Shown piece after piece: positions 30,628 through 51,096 of a stretch of DNA of 64,000 nt (within the stretch, counting starts at the first letter, position 1; each line of letters opens with the position of its first letter). This stretch comes from Candidatus Sulfotelmatobacter sp. (GTDB lineage: Bacteria; Eisenbacteria; RBG-16-71-46): contig DATKAB010000053.1 of NCBI GenBank assembly GCA_035498555.1, forward strand, positions 62,608-126,607, written 5' to 3'. Position numbers and translations under genes: made by a program. The notes under the pieces were generated by a model that saw only the letters and a list, made by a program, of their open reading frames with translations, was not told the origin of the DNA and made no database searches.

Positions 30628-31032
30628 ACCATGGCTCAGGAAATCGCCTTCTGGGAAGTGGTGGACGAGATCCGCGAGGCCGACGGGCGGTATCGCCGCG
30701 AGGCCTACGGCTTCCTGATGGCGGCGCTCGGCATCACCGTGCACGGGCTTCCCGAGGAGCGGAAGCTGGATCCGGCGCGGCGGCACCTGAGCGGCGGCGA
30801 GCTGCTGGAGGGAATGGTGCGGCTCGCGCGCAACGAATTCGGCGAGCTCGCCCCGACCGTGTTCAGCGAGTGGGGTGTCCATCACGGAGAGGATGTCGGC
30901 GAGATGGTCTTCCAGCTGGTGGCGAGCGGGCAGCTCAGCGCCCGGCCGGAGGACACCCTCGAGGACTTTCGCGGGTTTCGCCTGATGGAGGCGCTGCGCG
31001 GAGGCGGTACGCTCCCCGCCGGGTCCTCGTGA
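30628..31032 (+). CDS. hypothetical protein (134 aa, acidic, no recognisable domain)
   Basis: ATG preceded by a GGAGACC ribosome-binding site; embedded between nadB and msbA. Confidence 0.4.
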   Translation, partial: TMAQEIAFWEVVDEIREADGRYRREAYGFLMAALGITVHGLPEERKLDPARRHLSGGELLEGMVRLARNEFGELAPTVFSEWGVHHGEDVGEMVFQLVASGQLSARPEDTLEDFRGFRLMEALRGGGTLPAGSS

Positions 31033-31072
31033 GGCCACGTCCGGCCGCGAGTCGCCCTCTCGCCGTCGCACG

Positions 31073-32920
31073 GTGCCGCCGATGAAGACCTACCTTCGGC
31101 TGCTCGGCTATCTCAAGCCCTATCGGACCCGGCTGGCGCTGGCGCTCCTGTGCATGGTGCTCTACGCACTGATGTCGGCGGTGTCGCTGGGCATGGTGGC
31201 GCCGTTCATGCGCATCCTGTTCGAGCGCACCGGCGTGATGGGGCAGGTGTCCGGAGTCGCCGGCCTCGCGATGCAATCCGACCGCCTCACCGGATGGCCC
31301 GAGCCGTTGCGCGCTTGGGCCCAGGGCGCTCTGCTCGACGCGCGGCCGCTGGTGGCCCTCGAGCGCGTGTGCGTGCTGATCCTGGTGGCGCTCGCGCTCA
31401 AGAATCTCGCCGACTATCTGCAGGCCTACCTGATGGTGACGGTGGAACAGGCGGCCATCCGCGATCTCCGCAGCGGCATGTTCTCGCACCTGATGCAGCT
31501 GCCGCTCTCGTTCTTCCAGGAATCCCGCGGCGGCGCGCTGCTCTCGCGCATGACCAACGACCTGGAATTCGCGCGCGCCTCGCTGGCGGCCGGAGTCGGC
31601 AACCTGGTCAAGGACTCGCTCACCCTGCTCGGGTGCCTGGCCTGGGTGTTCCTGGCGTCGTGGCGTCTGGCGCTGCTGGCGATGGTCGTGCTGCCGCCGG
31701 CGGCGGTGGCGCTGGTGGCGATCGGGCGAAAGATGCGCCAGCGCTCAACTCGCGCCCAGCAGCGCATCGCCGAAGTCAGCAGCATCGTGCAGGAGACCGC
31801 GGCGGGCGTGCGAGTGGTCAAGGGCTTCGGCATGGAAGGTTACGAACGGAATCGGTTCGATCAGGCCAACGACGGCTACTACCGCGCCGTCGTCAAGCTG
31901 CGCCGGGTCTCGGCCGCGGCCCGACCGGTGAGCGAATACGCGATCGTGGTCGTGGCGGTGGCCATGCTGTGGGTGGGGGGTCAGCAAATCTTCGTCAACC
32001 ATTCGCTCGCCCCTCAGCAGTTCATCCTGTTCGTGACCGCGCTGCTCAGCACCATCTCGCCGATCAAGAGCCTGTCCGAGGTCAACGCCAACATTCAGCA
32101 GGGCATCTCCGCGGGCGAGCGGATCTTCGCGCTGTTCGACGCTCCGCCCACCGAGGTGGATCGCGCGGGCGCTCGCGCGCTGCCGAGACTGGCGCACGGC
32201 CTGCGCTTCGATCAGGTGAGCTTCGCCTACGACCACGACAAGCCGGTGCTCGAGAACGTGAGTTTCGAGGTTCGGCGGGGCGAGGTGCTGGCGCTGGTGG
32301 GCCCGAGCGGCGCGGGGAAGAGCACGGCGCTCGATCTGCTGGCGCGATTCCGCGAGCCGACCATGGGCCGCATCATCCTCGACGGCGTGGACATTCGAGA
32401 CGGCACCATCGCCTCGCTTCGCTCCCAGCTCGGCATCGTCACCCAGGAGACCCTGCTGTTCCACGACACCGTCTCTCACAATATCGCTTACGGCCTGACC
32501 GGCGTGGACCCGGACGCGGTGATCGCGGCCGCGCGCGCCGCGCACGCGCACGATTTCATCATGCGGTTGCCGAGGCGCTACGAGACCGTGATCGGCGAGC
32601 GCGGCACCCGGCTGTCGGGCGGCGAGCGGCAGCGGCTCGCGATCGCCCGGGCGCTGCTGCGCAATCCCGCCATTCTGCTGCTCGACGAGGCCACCTCGGC
32701 GCTCGACACCGAAAGCGAACGCCTGGTGCAGGACGCGCTCGAGCACCTGATGCGTGATCGCACCGTGGTGGTGATCGCGCACCGGCTCTCCACCGTGCAG
32801 CACGCCGACCGCATCGTGGTGCTCGAGCACGGTCGGGTCGTGGCCACCGGGACCCACGCCGAGCTGATGCTGGCGGGCGGCGCCTACCGCCGGCTCTACG
32901 AGCTTCAGTTCACGGGATGA
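31073..32920 (+). CDS. msbA: lipid A export ABC transporter permease/ATP-binding protein MsbA-like
   Basis: Six-TM ABC exporter domain plus NBD (Walker A GPSGAGKST, signature LSGGERQR). An alternative ATG start lies at 31082. Confidence 0.8.
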   Translation: MPPMKTYLRLLGYLKPYRTRLALALLCMVLYALMSAVSLGMVAPFMRILFERTGVMGQVSGVAGLAMQSDRLTGWPEPLRAWAQGALLDARPLVALERVCVLILVALALKNLADYLQAYLMVTVEQAAIRDLRSGMFSHLMQLPLSFFQESRGGALLSRMTNDLEFARASLAAGVGNLVKDSLTLLGCLAWVFLASWRLALLAMVVLPPAAVALVAIGRKMRQRSTRAQQRIAEVSSIVQETAAGVRVVKGFGMEGYERNRFDQANDGYYRAVVKLRRVSAAARPVSEYAIVVVAVAMLWVGGQQIFVNHSLAPQQFILFVTALLSTISPIKSLSEVNANIQQGISAGERIFALFDAPPTEVDRAGARALPRLAHGLRFDQVSFAYDHDKPVLENVSFEVRRGEVLALVGPSGAGKSTALDLLARFREPTMGRIILDGVDIRDGTIASLRSQLGIVTQETLLFHDTVSHNIAYGLTGVDPDAVIAAARAAHAHDFIMRLPRRYETVIGERGTRLSGGERQRLAIARALLRNPAILLLDEATSALDTESERLVQDALEHLMRDRTVVVIAHRLSTVQHADRIVVLEHGRVVATGTHAELMLAGGAYRRLYELQFTG

Positions 32921-40623: not shown

Positions 40624-42672
40624 TCAGGCCGCTGCGACGTTGGAGGAGTGGCTGGTGGCCTGCACGCTGCGGCTCCGGGTCGGCGCCGCGAGGACGGCCG
40701 CCTGATACTGAGCGCGGTTCACCAGACGCGAGTAGCCGATGATGGACCACGAATAGAGCATGCCCCAGGTGGCGAGCCGCACCACCCACGGCAGGTCGCT
40801 GGGCGTCACCGCGAGCCGCGGCTCGAACGCGAACGGGGGCGCCGCGACCAGCTGGCTGCCCAGCATCCCGAGCGCGATCGTCAGCATGAGTATCGGTGAG
40901 AACGCGCGCCTGAAGCTGATCAGGCCGAAGCCGGGGATCAACACAGCGAGCGCGCCACGCAGCAGATTCTGAGTGCGGTCCACGCGCCTCTTGCGATTGG
41001 CGAGCAGCACGCGCGCCACCTCGGGAGCGTCGGCGGACTTCTCGGCTGCCGCGCAGGCCGGGCACAGGGCCAGCTCGCGACGCCGCTCGGCGCAGCGGCG
41101 GCACACGGTTCGACCACAGTTGCTGCAGGCGCGCAGCGGCAGCTGGCGCTGCTGCTGGAGGCCGGCGAGCACGCCCAGCACGGCCACCCCGAGCACGGCG
41201 AGCGAGAAACCCCAGCCGCGAGTCTCGAGTCGGTCGCGCCAGCCGGGAGGCAGCGCGCCGCGCGTGCTCCCGGAGGGCACCGAGCCCGAAAGCGAGCGCC
41301 AGAAGCGATTGGGCGCGATCCACTGGTCCACCAGCGCCAGGTACCCGTCTTCCGTGCTCTGGCCCTGATAGGTCTTGACCATCTCGAAGTTGATGGCCGA
41401 GGCGCGAGTGAGCGCATCGCTCGCAGCGCGGAAATCGAAGCGCTGCGTGTAGAGCTGGGAGATGTTGAACCACGCCGCCCCGTTGGACGGGTTCTGCGAA
41501 GTCGCACGGCGATAGAAGTCGAAGGCCTCGTCGCCGCGGCCCTGGCTCATCATGACGTTGCCGAGGTTGTTGAGCAGCCGGTCGTCGTTCGGCCACAGGT
41601 GGAGCGCGTGGCGATAGAGCCGCTCGGCGGCGGGCACGTCGCCGGCCCGCCTCGCCATCCAGCCGGCGGCGAAGGCCAGGAACGGATTCTCGGGCTCGCG
41701 GGCCGAGAGCTGCTCCAGCTCCTCGGCGCGCGCCGGCGAGGCCGGCTCGGTTTCGACCATCGCCACGCCGTGGAGCGGACCGCGGGCGGCGTCGAGCGGC
41801 AGGGTCAGGCGATCGAGTGCGTCCACCACCAGCGGCATTACCGCGAGGCTCGCGACCAGCAGGATGAACACGATTCGTTCGCGCGCCTGTAGCAGCGGCC
41901 AGAGCAGGGCGAGGAACAGGACCACCGGCAGCGCCGGACCCAGGCCGAGGAAGAACGGCATCGCCAGCAGCGCCCAGGACCAGGCTTCGGCGCTGGACGC
42001 GGTCACCAGTCGGCGCAGCGGTTCTCTCCAGGAATGGCGCAGCTCGGCCTGATGCACGGCGACCACCAGCGCGCCGGTGGCGAGAATGCCGAGGAACAGC
42101 GCCTGCAGGATGGCGTAGATCGTGTTCGCGCACAGCGCGAGCTGGAGGAGAAAGTTCTGGCGCGCCAGCTCGAGCACGCTGGCGTAGCGGAGCAGCGCCT
42201 GGCTCGGCTCGTGGAGCAGACTCCACGACGCGAGCGTGAGGTGCGGGGTGACGAAGGTCGGGTCGAGCTCCGCCGCGCCGCGCACCAGCCGGGCCGCTTC
42301 GTCGAGACTGCCGGACTCGTGAGCGAGGATTCCGCGGCGATAGAAGAGTCGTGCCTCGAGCGGGAGCGAGGCGATGTGATGGCGCTCCTTGTACTGCAAC
42401 CAGCCGGTGAGGTCGGTGAGCGGCGGTTGCGCTTCGTCGGCGGCGACCGCCGCAGGCGGCGGAGCGGGGGTTGTGGTCGCGGGAGCGGTATCGGCCGGAT
42501 GCTCGGTGGTGCCGGGAACGTTCGGCGCCGATCCCGCCGCGGACGCCCCGAGCGCCGTGGCGAGCACCAGCACGAGAGCGACCCCGGCCTGCCGAAGACG
42601 CCGGCCGGAGAGCCCAGATTGTCCGGCCGCTCGGCTCCTGAGCGCGCTCCCGCCGTCCAGCCATTCGAACAT
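40624..42672 (-). CDS. polytopic membrane protein with TPR repeats and a zinc-ribbon (CxxC x3) motif
   Basis: Minus-strand ORF with a signal-anchor, a Pro/Thr-rich linker, several TM helices, TPR-like repeats (AERLYRHALHLWPNDDRLLNNLGNV...) and CSNCGRTVCRRCAERRRELALCPAC, followed by 2 C-terminal TMs. The start is taken at the ATG (MFEWLDGG) with an AGGGA ribosome-binding site; a longer GTG start at 42717 is possible. Confidence 0.55.
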   Translation of the reverse strand: MFEWLDGGSALRSRAAGQSGLSGRRLRQAGVALVLVLATALGASAAGSAPNVPGTTEHPADTAPATTTPAPPPAAVAADEAQPPLTDLTGWLQYKERHHIASLPLEARLFYRRGILAHESGSLDEAARLVRGAAELDPTFVTPHLTLASWSLLHEPSQALLRYASVLELARQNFLLQLALCANTIYAILQALFLGILATGALVVAVHQAELRHSWREPLRRLVTASSAEAWSWALLAMPFFLGLGPALPVVLFLALLWPLLQARERIVFILLVASLAVMPLVVDALDRLTLPLDAARGPLHGVAMVETEPASPARAEELEQLSAREPENPFLAFAAGWMARRAGDVPAAERLYRHALHLWPNDDRLLNNLGNVMMSQGRGDEAFDFYRRATSQNPSNGAAWFNISQLYTQRFDFRAASDALTRASAINFEMVKTYQGQSTEDGYLALVDQWIAPNRFWRSLSGSVPSGSTRGALPPGWRDRLETRGWGFSLAVLGVAVLGVLAGLQQQRQLPLRACSNCGRTVCRRCAERRRELALCPACAAAEKSADAPEVARVLLANRKRRVDRTQNLLRGALAVLIPGFGLISFRRAFSPILMLTIALGMLGSQLVAAPPFAFEPRLAVTPSDLPWVVRLATWGMLYSWSIIGYSRLVNRAQYQAAVLAAPTRSRSVQATSHSSNVAAA

Positions 42673-42684
42673 GCGTGCCATCCC

Positions 42685-42713
42685 TTGACAGTGCCGGAGT
42701 GCCCACCTAGCGT
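42685..42713 (+). promoter_or_regulatory. candidate sigma70-like promoter (TTGACA-17 nt-TAGCGT) in the divergent region upstream of asnS
   Basis: Perfect -35 hexamer, 17-nt spacer and a TAnnnT -10-like hexamer about 120 nt upstream of the asnS ATG. Confidence 0.3.
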
Positions 42714-42835
42714 GCACCGCGTCCCATTCGTTATCGGCCCTTCTCGGCAGCCGCTTTACGCGAGTTTCCCCGGGGCCGCCGAAGCCCGCCCGGCCTCGCG
42801 CCGGCCGGACAACTCACGATCCAAGGACCCCTGGA

Positions 42836-44181: not shown

Positions 44182-44211
44182 TTGACACGAACCCGCGCCG
44201 CTCCTTACACT
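44182..44211 (+). promoter_or_regulatory. candidate sigma70-like promoter (TTGACA-17/18 nt-TACACT) upstream of the Ton operon
   Basis: Sits in the 106-nt gap between asnS and the PstS-like gene. Confidence 0.35.
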
Positions 44212-44261
44212 TGGCTCGCTTCGTTGTCTCGGCGCCTGGTGCCAGGAGCCTGAGGCGGTTC

Positions 44262-45152
44262 ATGCCTCTGGTGCCGTGCCTGGTCGTGGTTCTCGGCTGC
44301 TCTCGCAAACCAGCGCCTCCCACCGTGGAAGACTCGCTGACCAGCGGAACGATTCGAATTGCCTGCGCTCCGGAGGCCCGGGGGCTGATCGCGCGCGAGG
44401 CCGCCGCCTTTGAGGCGCTCTATCCCCAGGCCCGTCTGGAGATTCATGAAGCATCGTCGCGGGATGGCGTTGGGGAGCTGTTCGGCGCGAGGTCCGATCT
44501 GGCGGTGATCACGCGCGAGCTGAGCACCGAAGAGCGGGCGGCTGCGGTGCGAGGAAAGCTCGAGCTCGAAGGATACCGGTTCGCTCGGGACGCGGCGGTG
44601 ATGATTGCGAACTCAGAAAATCCGGTGCAGAACCTGGCGGTCGACCGGTTGCGCGAAGTCTATTCGACGGACGGCGCGCGCTGGTCCAGTCTGGGAGGCG
44701 AAGATCGGCCGGTCGAGCCGGTGGTTCTGCCGGCCGGGGCCGACCTGACGGAGTTCATGATCCAGCAGGTGATGGGAGGGCAACCGATTCGCGCACATGC
44801 GATCTACGCCGCGAACGAAGCCGAGGTGGCGAGCCTGGTGAAGAAGCGCCCGAATGCCATCGGCTACGTGTCGCTGGCGGCGGTCCCCGAGGACGTTCGC
44901 GTGCTGCGCCTCGCCGGACTGACCGGGCTGCCCTACTGGAAGCCCGACCTCGAGGCCATCTATCGCGGCGACTACCCGCTCACGCGATTCTTCAGCCTCT
45001 ACGTCCGCACCGATGGGGCGAAGCTGGCGAACGGCTTCATCACCTATGTCACGAGTCGTGAGGGCCAGGCGCTGGTCGAGCAGGCCGGGCTGGTGCCGAC
45101 CGCGGTGCCGGTCCGTTTCGTCCGTCGCTCCCCGATGTTGAGCACGCACTAG
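44262..45152 (+). CDS. PstS-family (phosphate-binding-protein-like) periplasmic substrate-binding lipoprotein
   Basis: Lipoprotein signal (LVVVLGC lipobox); PBP type-2 fold motifs (SGTIRIA, AVMIANSENPV, PNAIGYVS). No pstCAB genes are adjacent. Confidence 0.55.
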   Translation: MPLVPCLVVVLGCSRKPAPPTVEDSLTSGTIRIACAPEARGLIAREAAAFEALYPQARLEIHEASSRDGVGELFGARSDLAVITRELSTEERAAAVRGKLELEGYRFARDAAVMIANSENPVQNLAVDRLREVYSTDGARWSSLGGEDRPVEPVVLPAGADLTEFMIQQVMGGQPIRAHAIYAANEAEVASLVKKRPNAIGYVSLAAVPEDVRVLRLAGLTGLPYWKPDLEAIYRGDYPLTRFFSLYVRTDGAKLANGFITYVTSREGQALVEQAGLVPTAVPVRFVRRSPMLSTH

Positions 45153-45179
45153 GTCCCAAGAGGAGAACGATTCCCGACG

Positions 45180-46973
45180 ATGATTGGCTTCGGGCAGTTG
45201 CAGACGACGCGGCGATTCTGGCCGCGGATGGGAACGCTGCTGGTGGCCGTGGCGCTGGCGACGCCGGCGCTCGCCGACGATCTCAAGGACGCGCGCGCCG
45301 CTCTCCAGGCCGGGCGCGTCGATCAGGCCGCGACGCTGTTCGGGAAGCTGGCGAGCCAGGGCCAGATCGAGGGACACATCGGGCTCGGGCAGGTCTACCT
45401 GAAGAAGCGCCAGTATTCGAAAGCCCAGGACGAGTTCAAGCTCACCCAGCGTCAGGATCCGACGGTGGCGTGGGGATACTACGGCGAGGGTGAGGCCCTC
45501 AAGCGTCAGGGCAAGTGCGACGACGCGGTGCCGCTGATGCGAAAGGCCACCGATCTCGACAAGCGCTTCCCCGAGGCCACGCTTTCGCTCGGCGACTGCC
45601 TGGTGCAGCAGAAGCAGGTGGACGCCGCGATCGCGGTGCTCTCTCCCGGGGCCAAGTGGGGCTCCAAGTGGCGGCCGAAGTTCCTGGTGGCGCTCGGCAA
45701 CGCCGAGCTGGCGCGCGACTCGTTGCGCTCGGCCAGCGTCTACTACACGCAGGCGCGCGAGGAATCGCCCGAGGATCCGGCGCCGCGCAAGGCGCTCGGA
45801 GACTTCTACCTGTACACGCGCCGCATCGCGGAGCTGGCGATTCCCGAATACGAGGCAGCCGTCCAGCTCGATTCGTCGGACGTGGAGCTCCACTACGCTC
45901 TGGGCGAGGCGCTGTTCGCCGGCCAGCGCTACAACGAGGCGCTCGACCAATACAAGTGGGTGGTGGCGACCGACCCCGATTTCCCGCCCGGCCAGCTCTC
46001 GCTCGGCAATCTCTACTTCCTGTCGGGCCCGAACGACCCCCGCCGCTATGCCGACGCGCGCGCGCCGCTCGAGAAGTACACCCAGCTCGAGCCCAACGAC
46101 GCCAAGGGCTGGAGTCTGCTCGGCCGCACCTACTACTATCTGAAGATGAAGGACGAGGCGGTGCAGGCGATGGAGAAATCGCTCACGCTCGGCGGCGCCA
46201 ACAAAGAAACCTTCACGATCATGGCCCGCGTCTATGCCGAGAAGAAGGACTGGCAGAAGTCCCTCGACGCCTTCGCCAAGGGCGAGCCGACCTCGCGTGA
46301 CATGCTGACCATCGGCCAGATGTGGGTCTTCCTCGGCAAGCCGGAACGGGCCGACTCGATCTATCAGGCGGTGGTCGCCAAGGACTCCACCAGCGCCGAC
46401 GCCCGCTTCGCCCTGAACGAGTCGGGAAAGCTCCACTTCCGGCGCCAGGAGTACCCGATTGCCATCGCCATCTTCCAGCGGGTGATCGCTCTTGACCCGA
46501 GCAACGACGAGGCTTACTACTACCTCGGTCTGGCTTATAAGGAGTTGAAGCAGTACCCCGACGCGCTGAACGCGCTTCGGCAAGCGGCGACGCTGGCTCC
46601 CGGCAAGGCCGACCGCCAGTTCTGGCTGGGGATCCTTTACGCTCAGTTGGACTCGACGGCACTCTCGAGAGCTGCGCTCGAGAAATCGGTGGCGATCGAT
46701 TCCAGCGGGCAGTTCGCGGGTGTAGCGTATCGCCAGCTGGGTTACTACCGCCTTCTCGACAAGGAGTACGAAGGCGCCATCAGCCTGCTGGAACGGGCGG
46801 TGGCGTTGAACGACAAGGACATCCAGGCCTGGGTCTGGCTGGGGCAGGGGAATCAGAACGCCGGCCACCTGGCGCGGGCCGCTGAATGCTATCGCAAGGT
46901 GCTGGCGCTGGATCCGAAGCAGCCCGACGCGCAGAAGGGGCTGCAGTCGCTCCCCGCGGCGGCGCCCAAATAG
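45180..46973 (+). CDS. secreted TPR-repeat protein
   Basis: Signal peptide (LLVAVALATPALA) followed by multiple TPR units (e.g. AYYYLGLAYKELKQYPDAL). The opposite-strand 799-aa ORF is judged spurious. Confidence 0.65.
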   Translation: MIGFGQLQTTRRFWPRMGTLLVAVALATPALADDLKDARAALQAGRVDQAATLFGKLASQGQIEGHIGLGQVYLKKRQYSKAQDEFKLTQRQDPTVAWGYYGEGEALKRQGKCDDAVPLMRKATDLDKRFPEATLSLGDCLVQQKQVDAAIAVLSPGAKWGSKWRPKFLVALGNAELARDSLRSASVYYTQAREESPEDPAPRKALGDFYLYTRRIAELAIPEYEAAVQLDSSDVELHYALGEALFAGQRYNEALDQYKWVVATDPDFPPGQLSLGNLYFLSGPNDPRRYADARAPLEKYTQLEPNDAKGWSLLGRTYYYLKMKDEAVQAMEKSLTLGGANKETFTIMARVYAEKKDWQKSLDAFAKGEPTSRDMLTIGQMWVFLGKPERADSIYQAVVAKDSTSADARFALNESGKLHFRRQEYPIAIAIFQRVIALDPSNDEAYYYLGLAYKELKQYPDALNALRQAATLAPGKADRQFWLGILYAQLDSTALSRAALEKSVAIDSSGQFAGVAYRQLGYYRLLDKEYEGAISLLERAVALNDKDIQAWVWLGQGNQNAGHLARAAECYRKVLALDPKQPDAQKGLQSLPAAAPK

Positions 46974-46983
46974 GGGGAGTTCG

Positions 46984-47331
46984 ATGAAGCAACGCGAGGT
47001 CGGAAACATCAAGATCCTGACGCCGAAGGGCTACCTCACGGGTGGCGACGAGACCGACGAGCTCGACAAGGCCATCGAGCAGCTGAGCGAGAGTGGCAAC
47101 AAGGCGTTGATCATCAACCTCGCGGAGACCCAGCACCTGAACTCGACCGCGTTGGGCGTGCTGATTCGCGCGCACTCGAACTACGTGCGACGCGGGGGGC
47201 AGATGAAGCTGTGCTCGGTCGACAAGCGCATCGAGAACATCTTCGTGATCACCAAGCTGTCGCTGGTGTTCGACGTGTACCCCAACGAGGAGCAGGCCAT
47301 CGCCAGCTTCGCGGAGTCGAAGCCGGTCTGA
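46984..47331 (+). CDS. STAS-domain protein (anti-sigma-factor antagonist family), copy 1
   Basis: 115 aa with a SpoIIAA-like fold pattern; strong GGGGGAG ribosome-binding site. Confidence 0.7.
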   Translation: MKQREVGNIKILTPKGYLTGGDETDELDKAIEQLSESGNKALIINLAETQHLNSTALGVLIRAHSNYVRRGGQMKLCSVDKRIENIFVITKLSLVFDVYPNEEQAIASFAESKPV

Positions 47332-47351
47332 GGCCGGCGGGGGATCGGAGC

Positions 47352-47702
47352 GTGGCCATTCGCCGGAAGGAAGTTCGCACGGTGGTGGTGCTGTACCCGA
47401 AGGGGAATTTCTTCGGCGACGACGAGACGGACGAATTGCAGAAGGCGATCATGGACGAGGCGGCCGGCGGGAATGAGCGCCTCATCCTCAACATGCAGGA
47501 GTGTCAGTCGCTCAACTCGATCGCGATCGGCGTGCTGATGCGGGGATTCGCGAATTACCGCAGCCGCGGCGGCGAGATCAAGCTGTGTGGGCTGGGTAAG
47601 CGTCTTCAGGATCTCTTCACCATGACCAAGTTGATCATGGTGTTCGACCATCACGAGAGCGAGGAGGAAGCGCTCGCGGCTTTCGCGGTGGGAGCCCGGT
47701 AG
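47352..47702 (+). CDS. STAS-domain protein (anti-sigma-factor antagonist family), copy 2 (paralog of copy 1)
   Basis: GTG start; clear paralogy to copy 1 (shared GDETDEL..KAI, L..LNS.A.GVL.R...NY..RGG..KLC, TKL..VFD). Confidence 0.7.
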   Translation: MAIRRKEVRTVVVLYPKGNFFGDDETDELQKAIMDEAAGGNERLILNMQECQSLNSIAIGVLMRGFANYRSRGGEIKLCGLGKRLQDLFTMTKLIMVFDHHESEEEALAAFAVGAR

Positions 47703-47726
47703 CTCGAAGCGGAGGAGCCTCAGAAC

Positions 47727-48470
47727 ATGAGTCGTTTCATCGTTCCAATTGGGTTCGTGTCGGCTGCAGCGGTTTCGATCGCCATTTGGTACTTCCTGCC
47801 GGTTATCGGTGAACTCGGCAAGAACATCCAGCAGGGTGGCTACCTGGTGGCGGCGCTCATCATGCTCATCATCCTTCAGACCGCGTTCATCATCGAGCGC
47901 TCCTGGAGCCTTCGCAAGGCGCAGGGTCGCGGTCCGCTCACCGTGTTCCTGAACGAGGTCAGCCGCCGCCTGCACACCGGCGACGTGGACGGCGCCATCA
48001 AGGCCTGCGCGACTCAGCGGGGCTCGGCGGCGAACGTCATCCGCGCCGGCCTCGAGCGCTACCAGTCGCTGCGGGCAGAAAACGCGTCGCGCGAGAAGAT
48101 CGTGGCCGAGACCCAGGCCGCGATCGCGGAAGCCAACGGCCTCGAAGTGCCGTTGCTCGAGCGCAATCTGATCGCGTTGTCGACCATCGCATCGATTTCG
48201 ACCATGATCGGACTGCTGGGAACGGTGGTCGGAATGATCCGTTCGTTCGCCGCCCTCGGCCACACCGGCGCGGTGGACGCCACCAAGCTCGCCATCGGTA
48301 TCTCCGAGGCGCTCATCAATACCGCCGGCGGCCTGATCTGCGCGATTGCCGGAATCGTCGCCTATAACGTGTTCGTGACGCGCGTGGACGGCTTCAACTA
48401 TATGATGGATGAAGCCTCGTACGAGGCGGTCCAGCTGCTGGCCGCGTCGGCGCCCAGCGAGAAGAAGTAG
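47727..48470 (+). CDS. exbB: MotA/TolQ/ExbB proton-channel family protein
   Basis: 3-TM MotA/TolQ/ExbB architecture with the conserved C-terminal TM pair (TMIGLLGTVVGMI..F). Confidence 0.8.
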   Translation: MSRFIVPIGFVSAAAVSIAIWYFLPVIGELGKNIQQGGYLVAALIMLIILQTAFIIERSWSLRKAQGRGPLTVFLNEVSRRLHTGDVDGAIKACATQRGSAANVIRAGLERYQSLRAENASREKIVAETQAAIAEANGLEVPLLERNLIALSTIASISTMIGLLGTVVGMIRSFAALGHTGAVDATKLAIGISEALINTAGGLICAIAGIVAYNVFVTRVDGFNYMMDEASYEAVQLLAASAPSEKK

Positions 48471-48488
48471 GGGAGAGGGGCTCGAGCC

Positions 48489-48962
48489 ATGCTCAAGAAG
48501 ATGCGCCGCATCGGCATCGCCATCGACATGACGCCGATGGTCGATGTGGCGTTCCTGCTCCTGATCTTCTTCATGTGTACCACCCAGTTCAAGCCGCCCG
48601 AAAAGGACAAGATCACGCTGCCGGAATCGAGCTCCGAGGCCAAGTCTCCGGAGTCCGACATCATCACGATCGCGGTCACCAAGCTGCCTTCGGTGCGCGT
48701 GGTCTGGCATCAGGGCGGTCAGGAAGTGAACCGCGAGGTTCCCGCCGACAAGGTGGCGTCAGACCTTGGCAATGTCCTGAGCAACGCGCGTCTCGCCAAC
48801 CCGGCGGCCCGAATGATCGTCAAAATGGACAAGGATGCCCCGTACGGGGTGATGGCCGACATGATGGGCGCGCTGCAGGAAGCCAAGGCGCCGCGCTTCA
48901 ACGTACAGACCGAGCTCGAGGGCTCGGCCAATCCATTCAAGAAAGCCGCGGCCAAGCCATAG
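48489..48962 (+). CDS. exbD: ExbD/TolR biopolymer transport protein
   Basis: IDMTPMVDVAFLLLIFFM TM segment with the conserved Asp; periplasmic domain. Confidence 0.8.
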   Translation: MLKKMRRIGIAIDMTPMVDVAFLLLIFFMCTTQFKPPEKDKITLPESSSEAKSPESDIITIAVTKLPSVRVVWHQGGQEVNREVPADKVASDLGNVLSNARLANPAARMIVKMDKDAPYGVMADMMGALQEAKAPRFNVQTELEGSANPFKKAAAKP

Positions 48963-48985
48963 GTCGCTGGAGGAGGTGACGTCCC

Positions 48986-49480
48986 ATGGGTGCGGTAGAC
49001 ACCCCACAACCCAGACAAGGCAAGAAGAAGGGCAAGGGCTTCAGCCGCCCCAAGCGTCGCGTCGGTGTTCGCATCGACATGACGCCGATGGTGGACGTGG
49101 CGTTCCTGCTCCTGATCTTCTTCATGGTGACCACCGTGTTCCGGACTCCTCAGGCGCTCGAGATCAACCTGCCGCCCGACAAGGACGTCAAGGTCGAGAT
49201 CGCCCAATCCAAGGTGCTGAGCGTGCGGGTGCTCGGCGACGACCGTGCCTATTTCAAGCGCGGCGACGATCCATGGGCGCGCACCGACGTTCCGGGACTA
49301 AAAAAGGTGTTCGCGACGTACAAGGGGAACAAGGACCTGGTGGTCGTGATCAACATCGACCGTGAGTCGAAGTTCCACAACATGGTGGACATCATCGACG
49401 AGCTCGACCTGGCGAATCTGACGCGGTTCTCGCTGGGCACGCTGAAGCCGGAAGAGAAGAAGGAGGTCGAGTCGCTGTGA
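48986..49480 (+). CDS. exbD: ExbD/TolR biopolymer transport protein (second copy)
   Basis: Same IDMTPMVDVAFLLLIFFM motif; paralog of the preceding gene. Confidence 0.8.
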   Translation: MGAVDTPQPRQGKKKGKGFSRPKRRVGVRIDMTPMVDVAFLLLIFFMVTTVFRTPQALEINLPPDKDVKVEIAQSKVLSVRVLGDDRAYFKRGDDPWARTDVPGLKKVFATYKGNKDLVVVINIDRESKFHNMVDIIDELDLANLTRFSLGTLKPEEKKEVESL

Positions 49481-50196
49481 GCCAGCCGAACCTCACGCTT
49501 TACGAGTTCATGCCCTACGGGGCGCCCGAACTCAAGGAGGTCGCCAAGAAGTACATGACGCGGGCGATCGGCACTGCCGCGCTCGCGTGGCTGGTCGTGT
49601 TCGGCCTGTCCTTCGGCACTTCCGAGCTCCTCAAGCACCGTCCTCACGAGACCAGCGTGATCGTGGTGCCCTATCGCGAGCTGGCGGCGCCGCCGCCATT
49701 GACTCAGAACGAGCCTCCGCCGCAGGTGGCCATCGCCCAGCCGGTCGCGCCGCCGACCATGGGCGTCGCCGTGCCGGTCCCGGACGCCGAGGCCCCGCCC
49801 GAGCAGACCATCGCCACGCAGGAGGAGATCGCGCAGACCGCGCCTGGAATTTCCAAGGGCGACGGCGACCAGATCGTGGTCCAGCCGCCCTCCGAGGACG
49901 AGTTGCCGAAGCTCGGCGAGTACGTCTACGTCGAGGAGCTTCCCGAGGCGATCACCAAGGTCCCGCCCGAGTATCCGGACATCGCCCGCCAGGCGAACGT
50001 CGATGGCACCGTGCTCATGCAGGTGCTGGTCGGCAAGGATGGCAAGGTCAAGGACGTCAAGGTGATGAAGTCCGTCGCCATGCTCGATGCCGCGGCCATC
50101 ACCGCCGTGAAGCAGTGGATCTTCAAGCCCGCCCTTTCCAACAACAAGCCGGTGGCGGTGTGGGTGGCGGTGCCGATGAAGTTCACGCTCAACTAG
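49477..50196 (+). CDS. tonB: energy transducer TonB
   Basis: GTG overlaps the exbD stop; N-terminal TM, Pro-rich spacer, C-terminal TonB domain (YPDIARQANVDGTV ... KFTL). Confidence 0.7.
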   Translation: MSQPNLTLYEFMPYGAPELKEVAKKYMTRAIGTAALAWLVVFGLSFGTSELLKHRPHETSVIVVPYRELAAPPPLTQNEPPPQVAIAQPVAPPTMGVAVPVPDAEAPPEQTIATQEEIAQTAPGISKGDGDQIVVQPPSEDELPKLGEYVYVEELPEAITKVPPEYPDIARQANVDGTVLMQVLVGKDGKVKDVKVMKSVAMLDAAAITAVKQWIFKPALSNNKPVAVWVAVPMKFTLN

Positions 50197-50263
50197 ACCC
50201 TCGCCTCTCGCCACGCCCGGGACAGCTTTTGCAGCGCCGGTCGGGCCCGATTTGACCCCCGGT

Positions 50264-50300
50264 GAGCGGAGTCCTTAGGCTCCGCTCGTCTTTGTCTTCC
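50264..50300 (+). terminator. intrinsic terminator after tonB
   Basis: Perfect 8-bp stem GAGCGGAG/CTCCGCTC with an 8-nt loop, followed by GTCTTTGTCTT. Confidence 0.55.
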
Positions 50301-50328
50301 CCCGCCCGCCCTCATTATCGGAGTGACC

Positions 50329-51096
50329 ATGTCCGCGATTCCCTCGGACGGCGACGCGGCCGTTGCCGCTCCCGCACCCGGCCCCAATCTCTCGCTTTTC
50401 CAGCGCGCACTCGCCATCTATGCGCGGCCCTCGCAGGCCTGGAGCGGCCTCCAGGACCACGTCCAGTGGTGGTTCCCGCTGCTGCTCTTCCTTGCCATCA
50501 ACGTCTCGGGAGCCCTGCTGCTCCACGAGCGAGCCCTGATTCCCATGCTCCAGGACACCTGGGATCAGCAGGTCGCCAACGGGAACATGACCCCGGATCG
50601 CGTCGACAAGATGCTCGACTTCATGCGCAGCCCGATGGGAATCGGCTTCGCGGTCGGCCAGCAGGTGATCGTGATCGCGGTCATCACGTTTGTCACCGCG
50701 CTGGTCATCTGGTTCGGCGTGGGATTCCTGCTCGGCTCTCGATTCTCGTACCGTCTGTCTTTGGAGGTCGCGGCCTGGGCGGGTCTGGTCAACGTACCGG
50801 CCCAGTTGCTGGCATTCGGCCTCGCCTGGTATCGCCAGACCTACAAGGGCCTGCACGTGGGCTTCGGAGCGTTGCTGCCCGAGGCGGACACGCCCAGCAA
50901 GCTGATGGTGGGGCTCGGAGTCTTGCTCGACGCGATCGGACCCTTCTCGATCTGGTTCCTGGCCGTCGGGATCATCGGCGCCTCGACGCTGTCGGGGGCG
51001 CCGCGAAAATCGGTGGGGTGGTCGCTCGGGCTGTTGTACGGGGTGATGTGGGTCTTCGTCGCCGCCCTGGCCGCGGTGTTCACGCCGGGCAGCTAG
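50329..51096 (+). CDS. Yip1-family membrane protein
   Basis: Five-TM Yip1/DUF1282-like topology; GGAG ribosome-binding site before the ATG at 50329. Confidence 0.5.
   Translation: MSAIPSDGDAAVAAPAPGPNLSLFQRALAIYARPSQAWSGLQDHVQWWFPLLLFLAINVSGALLLHERALIPMLQDTWDQQVANGNMTPDRVDKMLDFMRSPMGIGFAVGQQVIVIAVITFVTALVIWFGVGFLLGSRFSYRLSLEVAAWAGLVNVPAQLLAFGLAWYRQTYKGLHVGFGALLPEADTPSKLMVGLGVLLDAIGPFSIWFLAVGIIGASTLSGAPRKSVGWSLGLLYGVMWVFVAALAAVFTPGS

What the first reader, a model, noticed from the sequence alone, without database searches (positions are those of the whole stretch)
44182..50300. Eight-gene Ton operon: PstS-like lipoprotein, secreted TPR protein, two STAS proteins, then ExbB-ExbD-ExbD-TonB
Gaps between the eight genes are 10-27 nt or overlaps. 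A TTGACA-17-TACACT promoter candidate lies upstream and a perfect hairpin plus U-tract terminator lies after tonB, so this reads as one transcription unit. A PstS-like binding protein and a TPR protein associated with exbB-exbD-exbD-tonB is, to my recollection, a Bacteroidota-type Ton locus organisation, but there they follow tonB. Here they lead the operon and two STAS-domain genes are inserted before exbB. The PstS-like protein has no cognate PstCAB, implying a non-transport (Ton-complex accessory) role.
Basis: partly seen in the sequence, partly recalled or inferred. Interest (0 to 1): 0.5.

Follow-up and report, generated by a model that had tools for sequence, protein, structure and literature searches.

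The report
Ton motor operon with STAS regulators
This is a real eight-gene operon for a TonB-type envelope motor in an uncultured Eisenbacteria-like bacterium, and its notable feature is that small cytoplasmic STAS "switch" proteins sit directly before the motor gene exbB in more than 100 loci from two distant lineages, which suggests an unreported way of regulating such motors.

Summary
Eight co-directional genes (44262-50196) encode a PstS-like lipoprotein, a secreted TPR protein, two STAS proteins, ExbB, two ExbD and TonB. Gaps are 10-27 nt, plus one 4-nt overlap.

The promoter (TTGACA-18-TACACT) and the hairpin after tonB are both conserved in position in related loci.

The interpretation needs correcting. 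The order is the standard Eisenbacteria locus (37 further loci, all collinear). A STAS gene before exbB is not an Eisenbacteria insertion: 72 non-Eisenbacteria loci, nearly all labelled Ignavibacteria or Bacteroidota, also have STAS-exbB-exbD-exbD. Seven of them carry the full set in the order STAS-ExbB-ExbD-ExbD-TonB-PBP-TPR. The window's operon is therefore a cyclic permutation of that set with STAS duplicated.

STAS1 is the best conserved protein of the operon. It keeps the SpoIIAA phospho-serine in all 80 exbB-linked copies aligned, and its model matches RsbV/SpoIIAA. Paralogues not next to exbB lie directly after a GAF-PP2C phosphatase gene.

The PstS-like protein has lost the phosphate-binding motifs, in both lineages.

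Best reading: a Ton-type proton-driven motor with periplasmic accessory proteins and a phospho-switchable cytoplasmic STAS input. The STAS-motor contact is inferred, not shown. No paper linking STAS to ExbB was found.

The parts
44182..44211 (+). Sigma-70-type promoter: -35 TTGACA (44182-44187), 18-nt spacer, -10 TACACT (44206-44211)
   Evidence: Found by the promoter scan. The pattern occurs only twice in the window against 0.02 expected. The hexamers and their spacing are conserved in 7 of 8 Eisenbacteria loci while the spacer sequence varies.
44217..44225 (+). Conserved motif CGCTTCGTT (consensus yACTTCGTT), 5 nt after the -10. Probably the start of the transcript or a regulator site.
   Evidence: Present at the same offset in L039, L082, L083, L084 and L089. 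Its function was not tested.
44262..45152 (+). PstS-like (PBP_like_2) periplasmic lipoprotein, 296 aa, with degenerate phosphate-binding motifs
   Evidence: Pfam PF12849, E 1.5e-28. TIGR02136 scores 101 bits against a cutoff of 206.6. Alignment to PstS 4gd5 shows GSTS changed to CAPEA and the REDGSGT motif lost. The identical 296-aa protein is in public annotation as P0121. Lipobox LVVVLGC.
45180..46973 (+). Secreted TPR-repeat protein, 597 aa
   Evidence: Many TPR Pfam families, E down to 5e-46. The N-terminal signal-like sequence ends in ALA-DD. It is always adjacent to the PBP gene in relatives.
46984..47331 (+). STAS1: single-domain SpoIIAA/RsbV-like protein, 115 aa, cytoplasmic, with conserved Ser54
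   Evidence: Pfam STAS, E 1.2e-13. PDB sequence hits to SpoIIAA, with Ser54 aligned to the DSSGLG motif that holds phospho-Ser58 (residue number from my own knowledge). AF2 model pLDDT 89.3; best fold matches RsbV and SpoIIAA, TM 0.75-0.86. N53-S54 is invariant in the 80 exbB-linked copies aligned.
47352..47702 (+). STAS2: paralogue of STAS1 (49% identical), 116 aa, an Eisenbacteria-specific duplicate
   Evidence: BLASTP E 1e-40 against STAS1. Pfam STAS, E 1.1e-9. The GTG 47352 start is supported by conserved N-termini in relatives, and the LNS serine is kept. Absent from L082, L087 and all non-Eisenbacteria loci.
47727..48470 (+). ExbB/TolQ-family proton-channel subunit, 247 aa
   Evidence: Pfam MotA_ExbB, E 2.3e-27. 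PDB sequence hits to E. coli ExbB (1.6e-14) and TolQ (2.9e-14). Hydrophobic segments at 1-31, 36-59, 147-178 and 194-221.
48489..48962 (+). ExbD1, 157 aa, single TM helix with the conserved Asp (MVDVAF)
   Evidence: Pfam ExbD, E 2.4e-24. Sequence.
48986..49480 (+). ExbD2, 164 aa, with a long basic cytoplasmic N-terminal tail and the TM Asp aligned with E. coli ExbD
   Evidence: Pfam ExbD, E 9.4e-25. Alignment to E. coli ExbD 6tyi places the Asp of idmtpmvDvafll opposite the Asp of invtpfiDvmlvl; that this is Asp25 is my own knowledge.
49477..50196 (+). TonB, 239 aa: N-terminal TM anchor, Pro-rich linker, C-terminal TonB_C domain. Overlaps ExbD2 by 4 nt.
   Evidence: Pfam TonB_C, E 6.5e-22. TIGR01352 scores 59 bits against a cutoff of 27.1. 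PDB sequence hits are TonB C-terminal domains only.
50261..50300 (+). Intrinsic-terminator-like hairpin followed by UCUUUGUCUU
   Evidence: Found by the terminator scan and by folding. A hairpin lies after tonB in L087, L088 and L089 as well. It overlaps TTGACC-18-TAGGCT (50252-50281), the likely promoter of the next cluster.

Best explanation
**What it is.** The locus is one operon for a Ton-type, proton-motive-force-driven energy transducer of the kind found in the FCB group (Fibrobacterota-Chlorobiota-Bacteroidota and allied phyla, to which I assign Eisenbacteria from my own knowledge). It has two sets of accessory proteins.

**Shown**
- ExbB plus two different ExbD proteins, each keeping the transmembrane Asp, form the inner-membrane stator.
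- TonB has an anchor, a Pro-rich linker and a TonB_C domain, and is the periplasm-spanning output.
- A lipoprotein of PstS fold with a remodelled anion pocket, and a 597-aa secreted TPR protein, are always encoded as a pair with this module.
- One or two SpoIIAA/RsbV-like STAS genes always lie directly upstream of exbB.
- The same seven components occur in Ignavibacteria/Bacteroidota loci in the order STAS-ExbB-ExbD-ExbD-TonB-PBP-TPR. The window holds a cyclic permutation of that set with STAS duplicated.

**Inferred**
- The cytoplasmic STAS protein(s) bind the cytoplasmic face of the ExbB-ExbD stator.
- This contact controls assembly or proton flux of the stator.
- The invariant Ser54 is phosphorylated and dephosphorylated by a kinase and a GAF-PP2C phosphatase encoded elsewhere. 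This would be a partner switch whose output is a motor rather than a sigma factor.
- The PBP-TPR pair acts in the periplasm as a scaffold or ligand sensor for TonB or ExbD, not as a phosphate importer.
For: **Domains and spacing.** Domain calls are and the gene spacing.

**Operon boundaries.** The promoter is supported by a phylogenetic footprint and by its rarity in the window. A hairpin is positionally conserved after tonB, and the next cluster has its own promoter-like element.

**STAS-exbB linkage**
- 76 of the 80 loci from the species-representative genome scan have STAS immediately upstream of exbB-exbD-exbD.
- Counting the metagenome loci too, there are 37 collinear Eisenbacteria-type loci and 72 non-Eisenbacteria linked loci.
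- In most Ignavibacteria loci the module is STAS-ExbB-ExbD-ExbD with no TonB, PBP or TPR nearby. STAS is therefore tied to the stator genes specifically.

**Conservation**
- Median identity to the window among Eisenbacteria-type loci: STAS1 79%, ExbB 73, STAS2 72, TonB 68, ExbD1 67, ExbD2 62, TPR 52, PBP 47.
- Window versus the 72 non-Eisenbacteria loci: STAS 57%, ExbB 54, ExbD 30-37.

**STAS features**
- N53-S54 and the G20-G21/E23-T24-D25 motif are conserved at 94-100% across the 80 linked copies.
- The fold matches RsbV and SpoIIAA, and Ser54 sits at the N-terminus of helix 54-69.

**Phospho-regulation context**
- All four STAS copies not linked to exbB (L007, L010, L012, L014) lie directly after a GAF-SpoIIE phosphatase gene. 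L010 is also followed by a Ser/Thr kinase.
- Fusions within the wider family include three STAS domains joined to a protein kinase, and FHA joined to STAS.
- One MAG (JBBIJH01) has both an exbB-linked copy (L013) and a PP2C-linked copy (L007).

**PBP pocket.** The pocket is remodelled identically in both lineages: a Glu replaces the phosphate-binding Ser/Thr and the SGT motif is lost.

**Absence of canonical partners.** No sigma factor, anti-sigma kinase or PstCAB is called within about 10 kb. A tblastn search with a PP2C phosphatase, a Ser/Thr kinase and SpoIIAB found nothing credible anywhere in the window.
Against: - No physical evidence for a STAS-ExbB or STAS-ExbD contact could be obtained.
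- No kinase or phosphatase is encoded in the window.
- STAS relatives at about 50% identity occur in unrelated contexts, for example next to a P-type ATPase in L090. The family is not dedicated to ExbB.
- ExbB and both ExbD score somewhat higher with TolQ/TolR models than with ExbB/ExbD models, all below the cutoffs.
- No TonB-dependent receptor is encoded near the operon, so the cargo is unknown.
- Operon status rests on sequence and comparative evidence only, with no transcript data.
Confidence: 0.55

Rival explanations
1. The STAS proteins are ordinary anti-sigma-factor antagonists. They act on an RsbW/SpoIIAB-type kinase and a sigma factor encoded elsewhere, and they are merely co-expressed with the Ton genes, for example to couple a stress regulon to envelope transport.
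For: The fold and best structural matches are RsbV and SpoIIAA. The phospho-serine is conserved. TIGR00377 (anti-sigma factor antagonist) scores 50.9 bits, just under its cutoff of 53.45. Paralogues lie next to PP2C phosphatase genes, as in classical partner-switching modules.
Against: No anti-sigma kinase or sigma gene is called in the annotated loci or in the ORFs I scanned with Pfam in L010, L018 and L065. A tblastn search of the window and the first 86 loci with a SpoIIAB sequence written from memory also found nothing. Adjacency to exbB persists across two deeply separated lineages and survives the loss of TonB, PBP and TPR from the locus. STAS1 is conserved as strongly as the stator itself, which is unusual for a loosely co-regulated gene.
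Confidence: 0.2
2. The module is functionally a Tol-Pal-like envelope-maintenance or cell-division machine, with TolQ-TolR-TolA analogues plus a CpoB-like TPR protein. It would not be an energiser of TonB-dependent nutrient receptors. This concerns the output only and is compatible with STAS regulation.
For: NCBIfam scores are TolQ 103.9 against ExbB 65.4, and TolR 55-57 against ExbD 24-33. The TPR protein hits the YbgF/CpoB model at 73 bits (cutoff 90). The neighbourhood is rich in outer-membrane biogenesis genes: LpxD, LpxC-FabZ, LpxB, an MsbA-like ABC exporter and a heptosyltransferase. An LptD-like gene follows the module in Ignavibacteria. In B. thetaiotaomicron the starch phenotypes were traced to TonB4 and TonB6, and the roles of the other nine TonB homologues, including TonB5 of the equivalent cluster, remain open (PMC10350073).
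Against: The C-terminal domain passes the TonB cutoff, and its PDB sequence hits are TonB only, never TolA. ExbD2 is closer to E. coli ExbD (2e-6) than to TolR (5e-3). No TolB or Pal gene is in any locus examined. All the Tol model scores are far below their cutoffs.
Confidence: 0.2
3. The PstS-like lipoprotein still binds phosphate or a related oxyanion, and the operon couples Ton activity to phosphate availability or to the uptake of phosphorylated substrates.
For: The overall PstS fold family is clear (PF12849, E 1.5e-28; PDB PstS hits at 3e-21). One Arg of the anion site (the ASR to TRE motif) and the SS of the second motif are kept.
Against: A conserved Glu replaces the phosphate-binding Ser/Thr of the GSTS motif, and the REDGSGT motif is lost, in both Eisenbacteria and Ignavibacteria. 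The score is half of the PstS family cutoff. No pstCAB is nearby.
Confidence: 0.1
4. The gene order is chance or genomic hitch-hiking, with no functional link between the accessory genes and the Ton core.
For: No experiment links them. STAS, TPR and PBP are all common, promiscuous domains.
Against: More than 100 independent loci keep the linkage. This includes a cyclic permutation that keeps all seven components together, with tight spacing and a single conserved promoter.
Confidence: 0.03

Closest known systems
E. coli ExbB-ExbD-TonB (Ton system)
   Same: It has a MotA_ExbB-family channel protein, ExbD with the transmembrane Asp, and TonB with a Pro-rich linker and a TonB_C domain. It presumably works as a PMF-driven stator pulling on outer-membrane receptors.
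   Different: There are two distinct ExbD genes, which suggests a heterodimer (inferred). It has a periplasmic PstS-like lipoprotein and a TPR protein, and cytoplasmic STAS proteins, none of which exist in the E. coli system. The TonB TM segment has no His, whereas E. coli TonB has the S-H-L-S motif with His20 (my own knowledge). No cognate receptor is identified.
Bacteroidota-type cluster exbB-exbD-exbD-tonB-(substrate-binding protein)-(TPR), e.g. B. thetaiotaomicron BT2668-BT2664 (tonB5)
   Same: The core and the PstS-like companion are the same. BT2664-68 are listed together as a down-regulated set under iron limitation (PMC10434189). tonB5 lies beside ExbB and two ExbD genes and is conserved in almost all the Bacteroides species analysed (PMC10350073). 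Ignavibacteria/Bacteroidota MAG loci L008-L038 show the full order, with PBP and TPR after tonB.
   Different: In the window PBP-TPR lead the operon, and two STAS genes precede exbB. Neither Bacteroides paper mentions a STAS gene, and I could not check BT2669 myself. The function of the Bacteroides cluster is also unknown.
SpoIIAA/RsbV anti-sigma-factor antagonists (partner-switching modules)
   Same: It is a single-domain STAS protein. The best sequence and fold matches are SpoIIAA and RsbV. The phosphorylatable Ser lies at the N-terminus of the helix. Paralogues lie next to PP2C (SpoIIE-type) phosphatase and Ser/Thr kinase genes.
   Different: No anti-sigma kinase or sigma factor is in the locus. 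The conserved genomic partner is a membrane stator (exbB-exbD). The family-specific motif is KG-x-L-x-GG-x-ETD-x-L. TIGR00377 falls just below its cutoff.
MlaB in the MlaFEDB lipid transporter (a STAS accessory subunit of an envelope machine; from my own knowledge, not tested here)
   Same: It is a precedent for a small single-domain STAS protein acting as a cytoplasmic accessory or regulatory subunit of an inner-membrane envelope-transport complex, rather than on a sigma factor.
   Different: MlaB binds an ABC ATPase, not a MotA/ExbB-type channel. MlaB-containing structures were not among the 50 fold matches listed.
Tol-Pal system with CpoB/YbgF
   Same: It has TolQ/TolR-like scores and a periplasmic TPR protein encoded with the motor. 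The E. coli tol operon also begins with a small cytoplasmic protein gene, ybgC (my own knowledge).
   Different: No TolB or Pal gene. The C-terminal domain is TonB_C, not TolA. The accessory proteins are of different folds (PstS-like, STAS).
Fibrobacter succinogenes FSU_2396-2403 (OmpA, TPR, TPR, ..., ExbB, ExbD, ExbD, TonB)
   Same: This is another cluster in which TPR proteins precede exbB-exbD-exbD-tonB. The cluster FSU_2400-2403 and the TPR and OmpA proteins are up-regulated on cellulose (PMC6851124).
   Different: Neither a PstS-like nor a STAS component is reported there, and an OmpA-family protein is present instead. The homology of the TPR proteins was not tested.

Membership tests
Ton system (ExbB-ExbD-TonB) | ExbB/TolQ/MotA-family channel protein with three TM helices and a cytoplasmic domain | tested here: met
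   PF01618, E 2.3e-27. PDB ExbB hit at 1.6e-14. Hydrophobic segments are listed. The NCBIfam equivalog cutoffs for ExbB and TolQ are not reached.
Ton system (ExbB-ExbD-TonB) | ExbD with a single TM helix carrying the essential Asp | tested here: met
   PF02472, E about 1e-24 for both genes. Both carry the MVDVAF motif, and ExbD2 aligns its Asp with that of E. coli ExbD.
Ton system (ExbB-ExbD-TonB) | TonB with an N-terminal anchor, a Pro-rich spacer and a TonB_C domain | tested here: met
   PF03544, 78 bits (cutoff 24.6). TIGR01352, 59 bits (cutoff 27.1). The linker PPPLTQNEPPPQ...APP is visible. PDB sequence hits are TonB only.
Ton system (ExbB-ExbD-TonB) | Energises TonB-box-bearing outer-membrane receptors | not testable with these tools
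   No receptor gene is called within about 10 kb. This needs the whole genome or an experiment.
PstS phosphate-binding protein of the PstSCAB transporter | PstS-type periplasmic binding fold | tested here: met
   PF12849, E 1.5e-28. PDB PstS hits at 3e-21.
PstS phosphate-binding protein of the PstSCAB transporter | Conserved phosphate-binding motifs (GSTS, GSS-G, R...SGT) and the family score cutoff | tested here: not met
   GSTS is changed to CAPEA with a conserved Glu, and REDGSGT is lost. TIGR02136 scores 101 bits against a cutoff of 206.6.
PstS phosphate-binding protein of the PstSCAB transporter | Adjacent pstC-pstA-pstB genes | tested here: not met
   None is called within about 10 kb of the gene in the source contig or in relatives.
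Anti-sigma-factor antagonist (SpoIIAA/RsbV) partner-switching module | Single-domain STAS fold | tested here: met
   PF01740, E 1.2e-13 and 1.1e-9. AF2 model pLDDT 89.3, with RsbV and SpoIIAA as top fold matches at TM 0.75-0.86.
Anti-sigma-factor antagonist (SpoIIAA/RsbV) partner-switching module | Phosphorylatable Ser at the start of the helix (SpoIIAA Ser58) | tested here: met
   STAS1 Ser54 aligns with the DSSGLG motif. It is invariant in the 80 linked copies aligned and is kept in STAS2. Phosphorylation itself is untested.
Anti-sigma-factor antagonist (SpoIIAA/RsbV) partner-switching module | Cognate anti-sigma kinase (HATPase_c type) and sigma factor, usually adjacent | tested here: not met
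   None appears in the Pfam-annotated neighbourhoods. tblastn with a SpoIIAB sequence written from memory found nothing in the window or the first 86 loci. The rest of the genome was not searched.
Anti-sigma-factor antagonist (SpoIIAA/RsbV) partner-switching module | PP2C (SpoIIE/RsbU-type) phosphatase partner | tested here: inconclusive
   Absent from the window. A GAF-SpoIIE gene lies directly upstream of the exbB-unlinked paralogues in L007, L010, L012 and L014.
Tol-Pal system | tolB and pal genes with tolQRA; TolA-type C-terminal domain | tested here: not met
   No TolB or Pal gene is called in any locus. The C-terminal domain is TonB_C. TolQ and TolR models score best but are far below their cutoffs.

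The most novel reading that the evidence does not exclude
The exbB-linked STAS proteins are regulatory subunits of the ExbB-ExbD stator. In one phosphorylation state of Ser54 they dock on the cytoplasmic face of the stator and switch proton flux or assembly on or off. This would give Eisenbacteria and Ignavibacteria post-translational, partner-switching control of a Ton/Tol/Mot-family motor. Such control is not described for any Ton system in the papers I could search. The duplicated STAS1/STAS2 pair of Eisenbacteria might act as a heterodimer matched to the ExbD1/ExbD2 pair.
Probability: 0.3. Interest if true: 0.75.

Novelty: new variant of a known kind. Interest (0 to 1): 0.55.

Why it matters
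Ton systems are usually thought to be controlled at the level of transcription (my own knowledge). I know of no cytoplasmic protein that regulates the ExbB-ExbD stator, and the literature searches found none linked to STAS.

A conserved, possibly phospho-switchable STAS partner would add a new control layer to a major consumer of proton-motive force. It would also extend partner-switching outputs from sigma factors to membrane motors.

The result also defines a seven-component module (STAS, ExbB, two ExbD, TonB, a PstS-like protein with a degenerate pocket, and TPR) shared by Eisenbacteria and Ignavibacteria/Bacteroidota. That gives a comparative handle on the uncharacterised TonB5-type cluster, which is conserved in almost all the Bacteroides species analysed in PMC10350073.

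The hypothesis may be testable in cultured Ignavibacteria such as Ignavibacterium album (cultured status is my own knowledge). A MAG labelled I. album, L024, carries STAS-exbB-exbD-exbD.

Tried and rejected
1. **Linked-chain structure job.** I tried to predict a STAS1-linker-ExbB chain to test for a contact.

2. **Natural fusions.** I looked for natural STAS-ExbB or STAS-ExbD fusions among ten of the larger relatives in the top 150 representatives. There were none, only tandem STAS, STAS-kinase, FHA-STAS and HTH-STAS.

3. **Profile search for other phyla.** A search with diverse distant STAS sequences again returned mostly Eisenbacteria STAS1, because that sequence is the most central in the family. 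The three look-ups that followed were all Eisenbacteria-type loci.

4. **Metagenome scan.** A scan aimed at a roughly 50%-identity STAS clade mostly recovered Eisenbacteria loci. The one true member of that clade (L090) lies next to a P-type ATPase, not exbB. The linkage cannot be extended to the whole STAS subfamily.

5. **Possible PP2C in the window.** A weak tblastn hit at 22852-23208 (minus strand) is spurious. The region encodes LpxC-FabZ on the + strand.

6. **Known RNAs.** The Rfam scan of 43.5-51.5 kb gave only sub-threshold snoRNA noise.

7. **Internal promoter.** No TTGACA-type element lies in the STAS-exbB spacers of relatives.

8. **Literature.** Searches for STAS or anti-sigma antagonist together with ExbB/TonB found only incidental co-mentions.

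9. **First alignment for the genome scan.** It was too diverse to yield a search pattern.

Full report
**1. Observation**

- PBP_like_2 (PstS-like), 44262-45152
- TPR protein, 45180-46973
- STAS, 46984-47331
- STAS, 47352-47702
- MotA_ExbB, 47727-48470
- ExbD, 48489-48962
- ExbD, 48986-49480
- TonB_C, 49477-50196

The gaps are 27, 10, 20, 24, 18 and 23 nt, followed by a 4-nt overlap. GC3 is 0.81-0.94 throughout.

The PBP has a lipobox (LVVVLGC) and the TPR protein has a signal-peptide-like N-terminus. The two STAS proteins have no hydrophobic segment, so they are cytoplasmic.

The STAS2 start is better placed at GTG 47352 than at the 47382 used by public gene calls. The residues between the two positions are conserved, and many relatives have ATG at the equivalent of 47352.

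**2. Boundaries**

*Promoter.* The candidate is TTGACA (44182), an 18-nt spacer, and TACACT (ending at 44211).
- The simple scan alone is not significant: 1 hit against 1.1 expected in 7.4 kb.
- The stricter pattern TTGACA-N17-19-TAnnnT occurs only twice in the whole 64 kb against 0.02 expected. Both sites lie in intergenic DNA just upstream of + strand genes, the class II aminoacyl-tRNA synthetase gene and the PBP gene.
- In 7 of 8 Eisenbacteria-type loci the same hexamers and the 18-nt spacing lie upstream of the PBP gene, while the spacer sequence differs. A further conserved motif, yACTTCGTT, lies 5 nt after the -10. This is a phylogenetic footprint of a real promoter.

*Terminator.* After tonB there is a hairpin at 50261-50290 followed by UCUUUGUCUU. 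A hairpin occupies the same position in L087, L088 and L089, each with a different sequence.

*Next cluster.* The next gene (50323-51096) is a weak YknW/Yip1-family match and is called Yip1 in relatives. It is followed by OEP, HlyD-type and MacB-type ABC genes. It is preceded by its own TTGACC-18-TAGGCT element (50252-50281), which L087 and L088 share. The Ton unit therefore ends at tonB.

No TTGACA-type element lies in the STAS-exbB spacers of relatives. Promoters inside coding regions cannot be excluded without transcript data.

**3. Source and conservation of the arrangement**

Homologues carrying a source name are mostly called Candidatus Eisenbacteria. Six metagenome contigs carry the same locus at 99-100% protein identity.

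The species-representative genome scan, the metagenome scan and three contig look-ups yielded 37 further Eisenbacteria-type loci. All are collinear: aaRS ... PBP-TPR-STAS1-(STAS2)-ExbB-ExbD-ExbD-TonB-Yip1-OEP-HlyD. The one apparent exception is a cross-hit at the end of a truncated contig. 35 loci have two STAS genes, and L082 and L087 have one.

So the eight-gene order is the standard locus of this lineage, not a peculiarity of the window.

**4. The wider module**

The genome scan with a STAS alignment found 357 relatives. The best 80 come mainly from Ignavibacteria/Ignavibacteriota and from MAGs labelled Bacteroidota, with a few Kryptoniota and Eisenbacteria.

- In 76 of the 80 loci the STAS gene lies immediately upstream of exbB-exbD-exbD on the same strand.
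- Seven loci (L008, L009, L011, L013, L018, L023, L038) read STAS-ExbB-ExbD-ExbD-TonB(-TonB)-PBP-TPR.
- Pfam on L018 confirms all seven, with nearly the same lengths as in the window: 115, 249, 154, 165, 241, 345 and 605 aa.
It matches the literature on B. thetaiotaomicron, where tonB5 (BT2665) lies beside ExbD BT2666-67 and ExbB BT2668, and BT2664 is a substrate-binding-domain protein listed in the same regulated set (PMC10350073, PMC10434189).
- The window's operon is therefore a cyclic permutation of a shared seven-component set, with STAS duplicated.
- In most Ignavibacteria loci tblastn detected no TonB, PBP or TPR after the second ExbD gene. In L065, the one I annotated, the order is Adk-STAS-ExbB-ExbD-ExbD followed by two TPM-domain proteins and an LptD-like protein. 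This ties STAS to the stator genes rather than to TonB, PBP or TPR.

**5. The STAS proteins**

- STAS1 and STAS2 are 49% identical paralogues.
- STAS1 hits SpoIIAA and RsbV in PDB by sequence, with Ser54 aligned to the DSSGLG motif that holds SpoIIAA's phospho-serine.
- Its AlphaFold model (pLDDT 89.3) is closest to RsbV and SpoIIAA, at TM 0.75-0.86 and rmsd 1.5-1.8 Å. Ser54 sits at the N-terminus of helix 54-69.
- Across the 80 exbB-linked copies aligned, N53-S54, A56, G58 and L60 are invariant. The loop G20-G21/E23-T24-D25 is conserved at 94-100%. In SpoIIAA the equivalent loop and the serine form the face that contacts the partner kinase (my own knowledge, not tested here).
- STAS1 is the best conserved protein of the operon. 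Median identity to the window among Eisenbacteria-type loci is: STAS1 79%, ExbB 73, STAS2 72, TonB 68, ExbD1 67, ExbD2 62, TPR 52, PBP 47.
- Against the 72 non-Eisenbacteria loci the medians are STAS 57%, ExbB 54 and ExbD 30-37.
- The four STAS copies not next to exbB (L007, L010, L012, L014) all lie directly after a GAF-SpoIIE (PP2C) phosphatase gene. L010 is also followed by a Ser/Thr kinase fused to an AAA domain.
- One Ignavibacteriales MAG has both kinds of copy (L013 and L007).
- Fusions in the wider family include three STAS domains joined to a protein kinase and ankyrin repeats, and FHA joined to STAS.
- These contexts indicate that the family is phospho-regulated.
- No kinase, phosphatase, sigma or anti-sigma gene is present in the window.

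**6. The PstS-like protein**

It belongs to the PstS fold family but scores half of the TIGR02136 cutoff. I aligned it with PstS 4gd5 and with Ton-linked homologues from both lineages. I take the four motifs below to form the phosphate site, by analogy with E. coli PstS as I remember it.
- The GSTS motif becomes (C/S)A-P/E-E/S, with a conserved Glu.
- GSSAG becomes S-S/T-R-E/D-A.
- The Arg of the ASR motif is kept.
- The REDGSGT motif is lost.

The same derived pocket in Eisenbacteria and Ignavibacteria shows that these proteins are orthologues of a dedicated Ton-associated subfamily. Canonical phosphate binding is unlikely. No pstCAB gene is nearby.

**7. Ton or Tol?**

- NCBIfam ranks TolQ and TolR models above ExbB and ExbD models for the stator proteins, though all are far below the cutoffs. 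The TPR protein weakly resembles CpoB/YbgF.
- The TonB C-terminal domain passes the TonB cutoff and matches only TonB structures.
- ExbD2 is closer to E. coli ExbD than to TolR, and ExbB is equidistant from ExbB and TolQ.
- No tolB or pal gene is present.

I file the locus as Ton-type and keep a Tol-like envelope role as a rival for the output.

**8. Mechanism proposed**

*Shown:* gene content, topology signals, conservation, synteny, the phospho-serine and the degenerate PBP pocket.

*Inferred:*
- (a) ExbB5 with an ExbD1/ExbD2 heterodimer forms the PMF-driven stator.
- (b) TonB transmits force to outer-membrane targets.
- (c) PBP and TPR form a periplasmic accessory or sensor scaffold.
- (d) STAS binds the cytoplasmic face of the stator, either the ExbB cytoplasmic domain or the long basic ExbD2 N-tail, and gates it. 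Ser54 phosphorylation by unlinked enzymes switches the binding.

Step (d) rests on linkage, conservation and analogy. The analogies are partner-switching outputs other than sigma factors, and MlaB as a STAS subunit of the MlaFEDB machine. Both come from my own knowledge and were not tested here.

**9. Novelty**

Neither NCBIfam nor Pfam has a specific family for the exbB-linked STAS or for the Ton-linked PBP. Full-text searches found no paper that connects STAS or anti-sigma antagonists with ExbB or TonB beyond incidental co-mentions.

The system is a new variant of a known kind. It is widespread in uncultured soil and sediment bacteria and entirely uncharacterised.

**10. Limits**
- No transcript data and no interaction evidence.
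- A complex prediction could not be run.
- The taxonomic reach of the STAS-exbB linkage beyond Eisenbacteria and the Ignavibacteria/Bacteroidota MAGs is unknown. One other contig (L118) shows it, and one STAS clade at about 50% identity (L090) does not.
- Whether Bacteroidia clusters such as BT2664-68 have or lack a STAS gene was not checked.

Noticed in passing
window 42685-42713 and 44182-44211: TTGACA-N17-19-TAnnnT occurs only twice in the 64 kb against 0.02 expected. Both sites lie just upstream of + strand genes, the class II aaRS at 42836 and the PBP gene. This lineage appears to use E. coli-like sigma-70 promoters with an 18-nt spacer.
   Followed up: partly
window 44217-44225; L039, L082, L083, L084, L089 upstream of the PBP gene: A conserved motif yACTTCGTT lies 5 nt after the -10 hexamer of the operon promoter, while the promoter spacer varies. 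It may be the start of the transcript or an operator.
   Followed up: partly
window 50252-50281: TTGACC-18-TAGGCT is a likely promoter for the downstream Yip1/YknW-OEP-HlyD-MacB efflux cluster. It overlaps the tonB terminator hairpin, with its -10 lying in the loop and 3' arm of the hairpin. Similar elements occur in L087 and L088.
   Followed up: partly
L039, L082, L083, L084, L087, L088, L089: spacer between the last STAS gene and exbB: Relatives have a 100-183 nt spacer here, rich in G+C hairpins. In L087 the hairpin is followed by a U-rich run, like an attenuator. The window has only 24 nt. This may set the expression ratio between the upstream genes and the stator genes.
   Followed up: partly
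L010, L012, L014 (Kryptoniota) and L007 (Ignavibacteriales): STAS paralogues 51-59% identical to STAS1 are not next to exbB. They lie directly after a GAF-SpoIIE (PP2C) phosphatase gene. In L010 the next gene encodes a 1442-aa Ser/Thr kinase with an AAA_16 domain.
   Followed up: yes
L065 9346-16261; tblastn gives the same STAS-ExbB-ExbD-ExbD pattern in most Ignavibacteria loci: L065 reads Adk-STAS-ExbB-ExbD-ExbD, then two TPM-domain proteins and an LptD_2-family outer-membrane protein, with no TonB. This looks like a different machine built on the same STAS-stator core. Only L065 was annotated downstream.
   Followed up: partly
L087 11164-12746: One single-STAS Eisenbacteria-type locus carries an extra ExbB (246 aa) and an unusually long ExbD (281 aa) between tonB and the Yip1 gene.
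   Followed up: no
proteins P0242 and P0243: P0242 is a single STAS whose N-terminal half looks like STAS1 and whose C-terminal half looks like STAS2. This suggests recombination between the tandem paralogues, or an assembly collapse. P0243 (240 aa) is a tandem fusion of two STAS domains whose first domain is 60% identical to an Eisenbacteria STAS1.
   Followed up: no
window 20852-26091 and 30986-32920: A lipid A cluster lies upstream: LpxD, an LpxC-FabZ fusion protein (440 aa), LpxB (its domain occupies residues 284-633 of a 651-aa ORF) and an MsbA-like ABC exporter. ClpB/ClpC-like, PurF-like and a second class II aaRS gene lie further upstream.
   Followed up: partly
window 40624-42717 (minus strand): A 697-aa ORF lies divergent from the aaRS gene. 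It has a Cys-rich CxxC...CxxC stretch and hydrophobic stretches by eye. The gene at the corresponding position in L001, L087 and L088 is called a TPR protein, and a PatA_N gene lies beyond it in L001 and L087.
   Followed up: no
protein P0121 (identical to the window PBP): NCBI labels the identical protein as coming from a 'Candidatus Sulfotelmatobacter sp.' MAG (Acidobacteriota by my own knowledge). Other hits are labelled Limnocylindria or Saccharimonadaceae. The locus is otherwise typical of Eisenbacteria, so these are probably mis-binned contigs.
   Followed up: no
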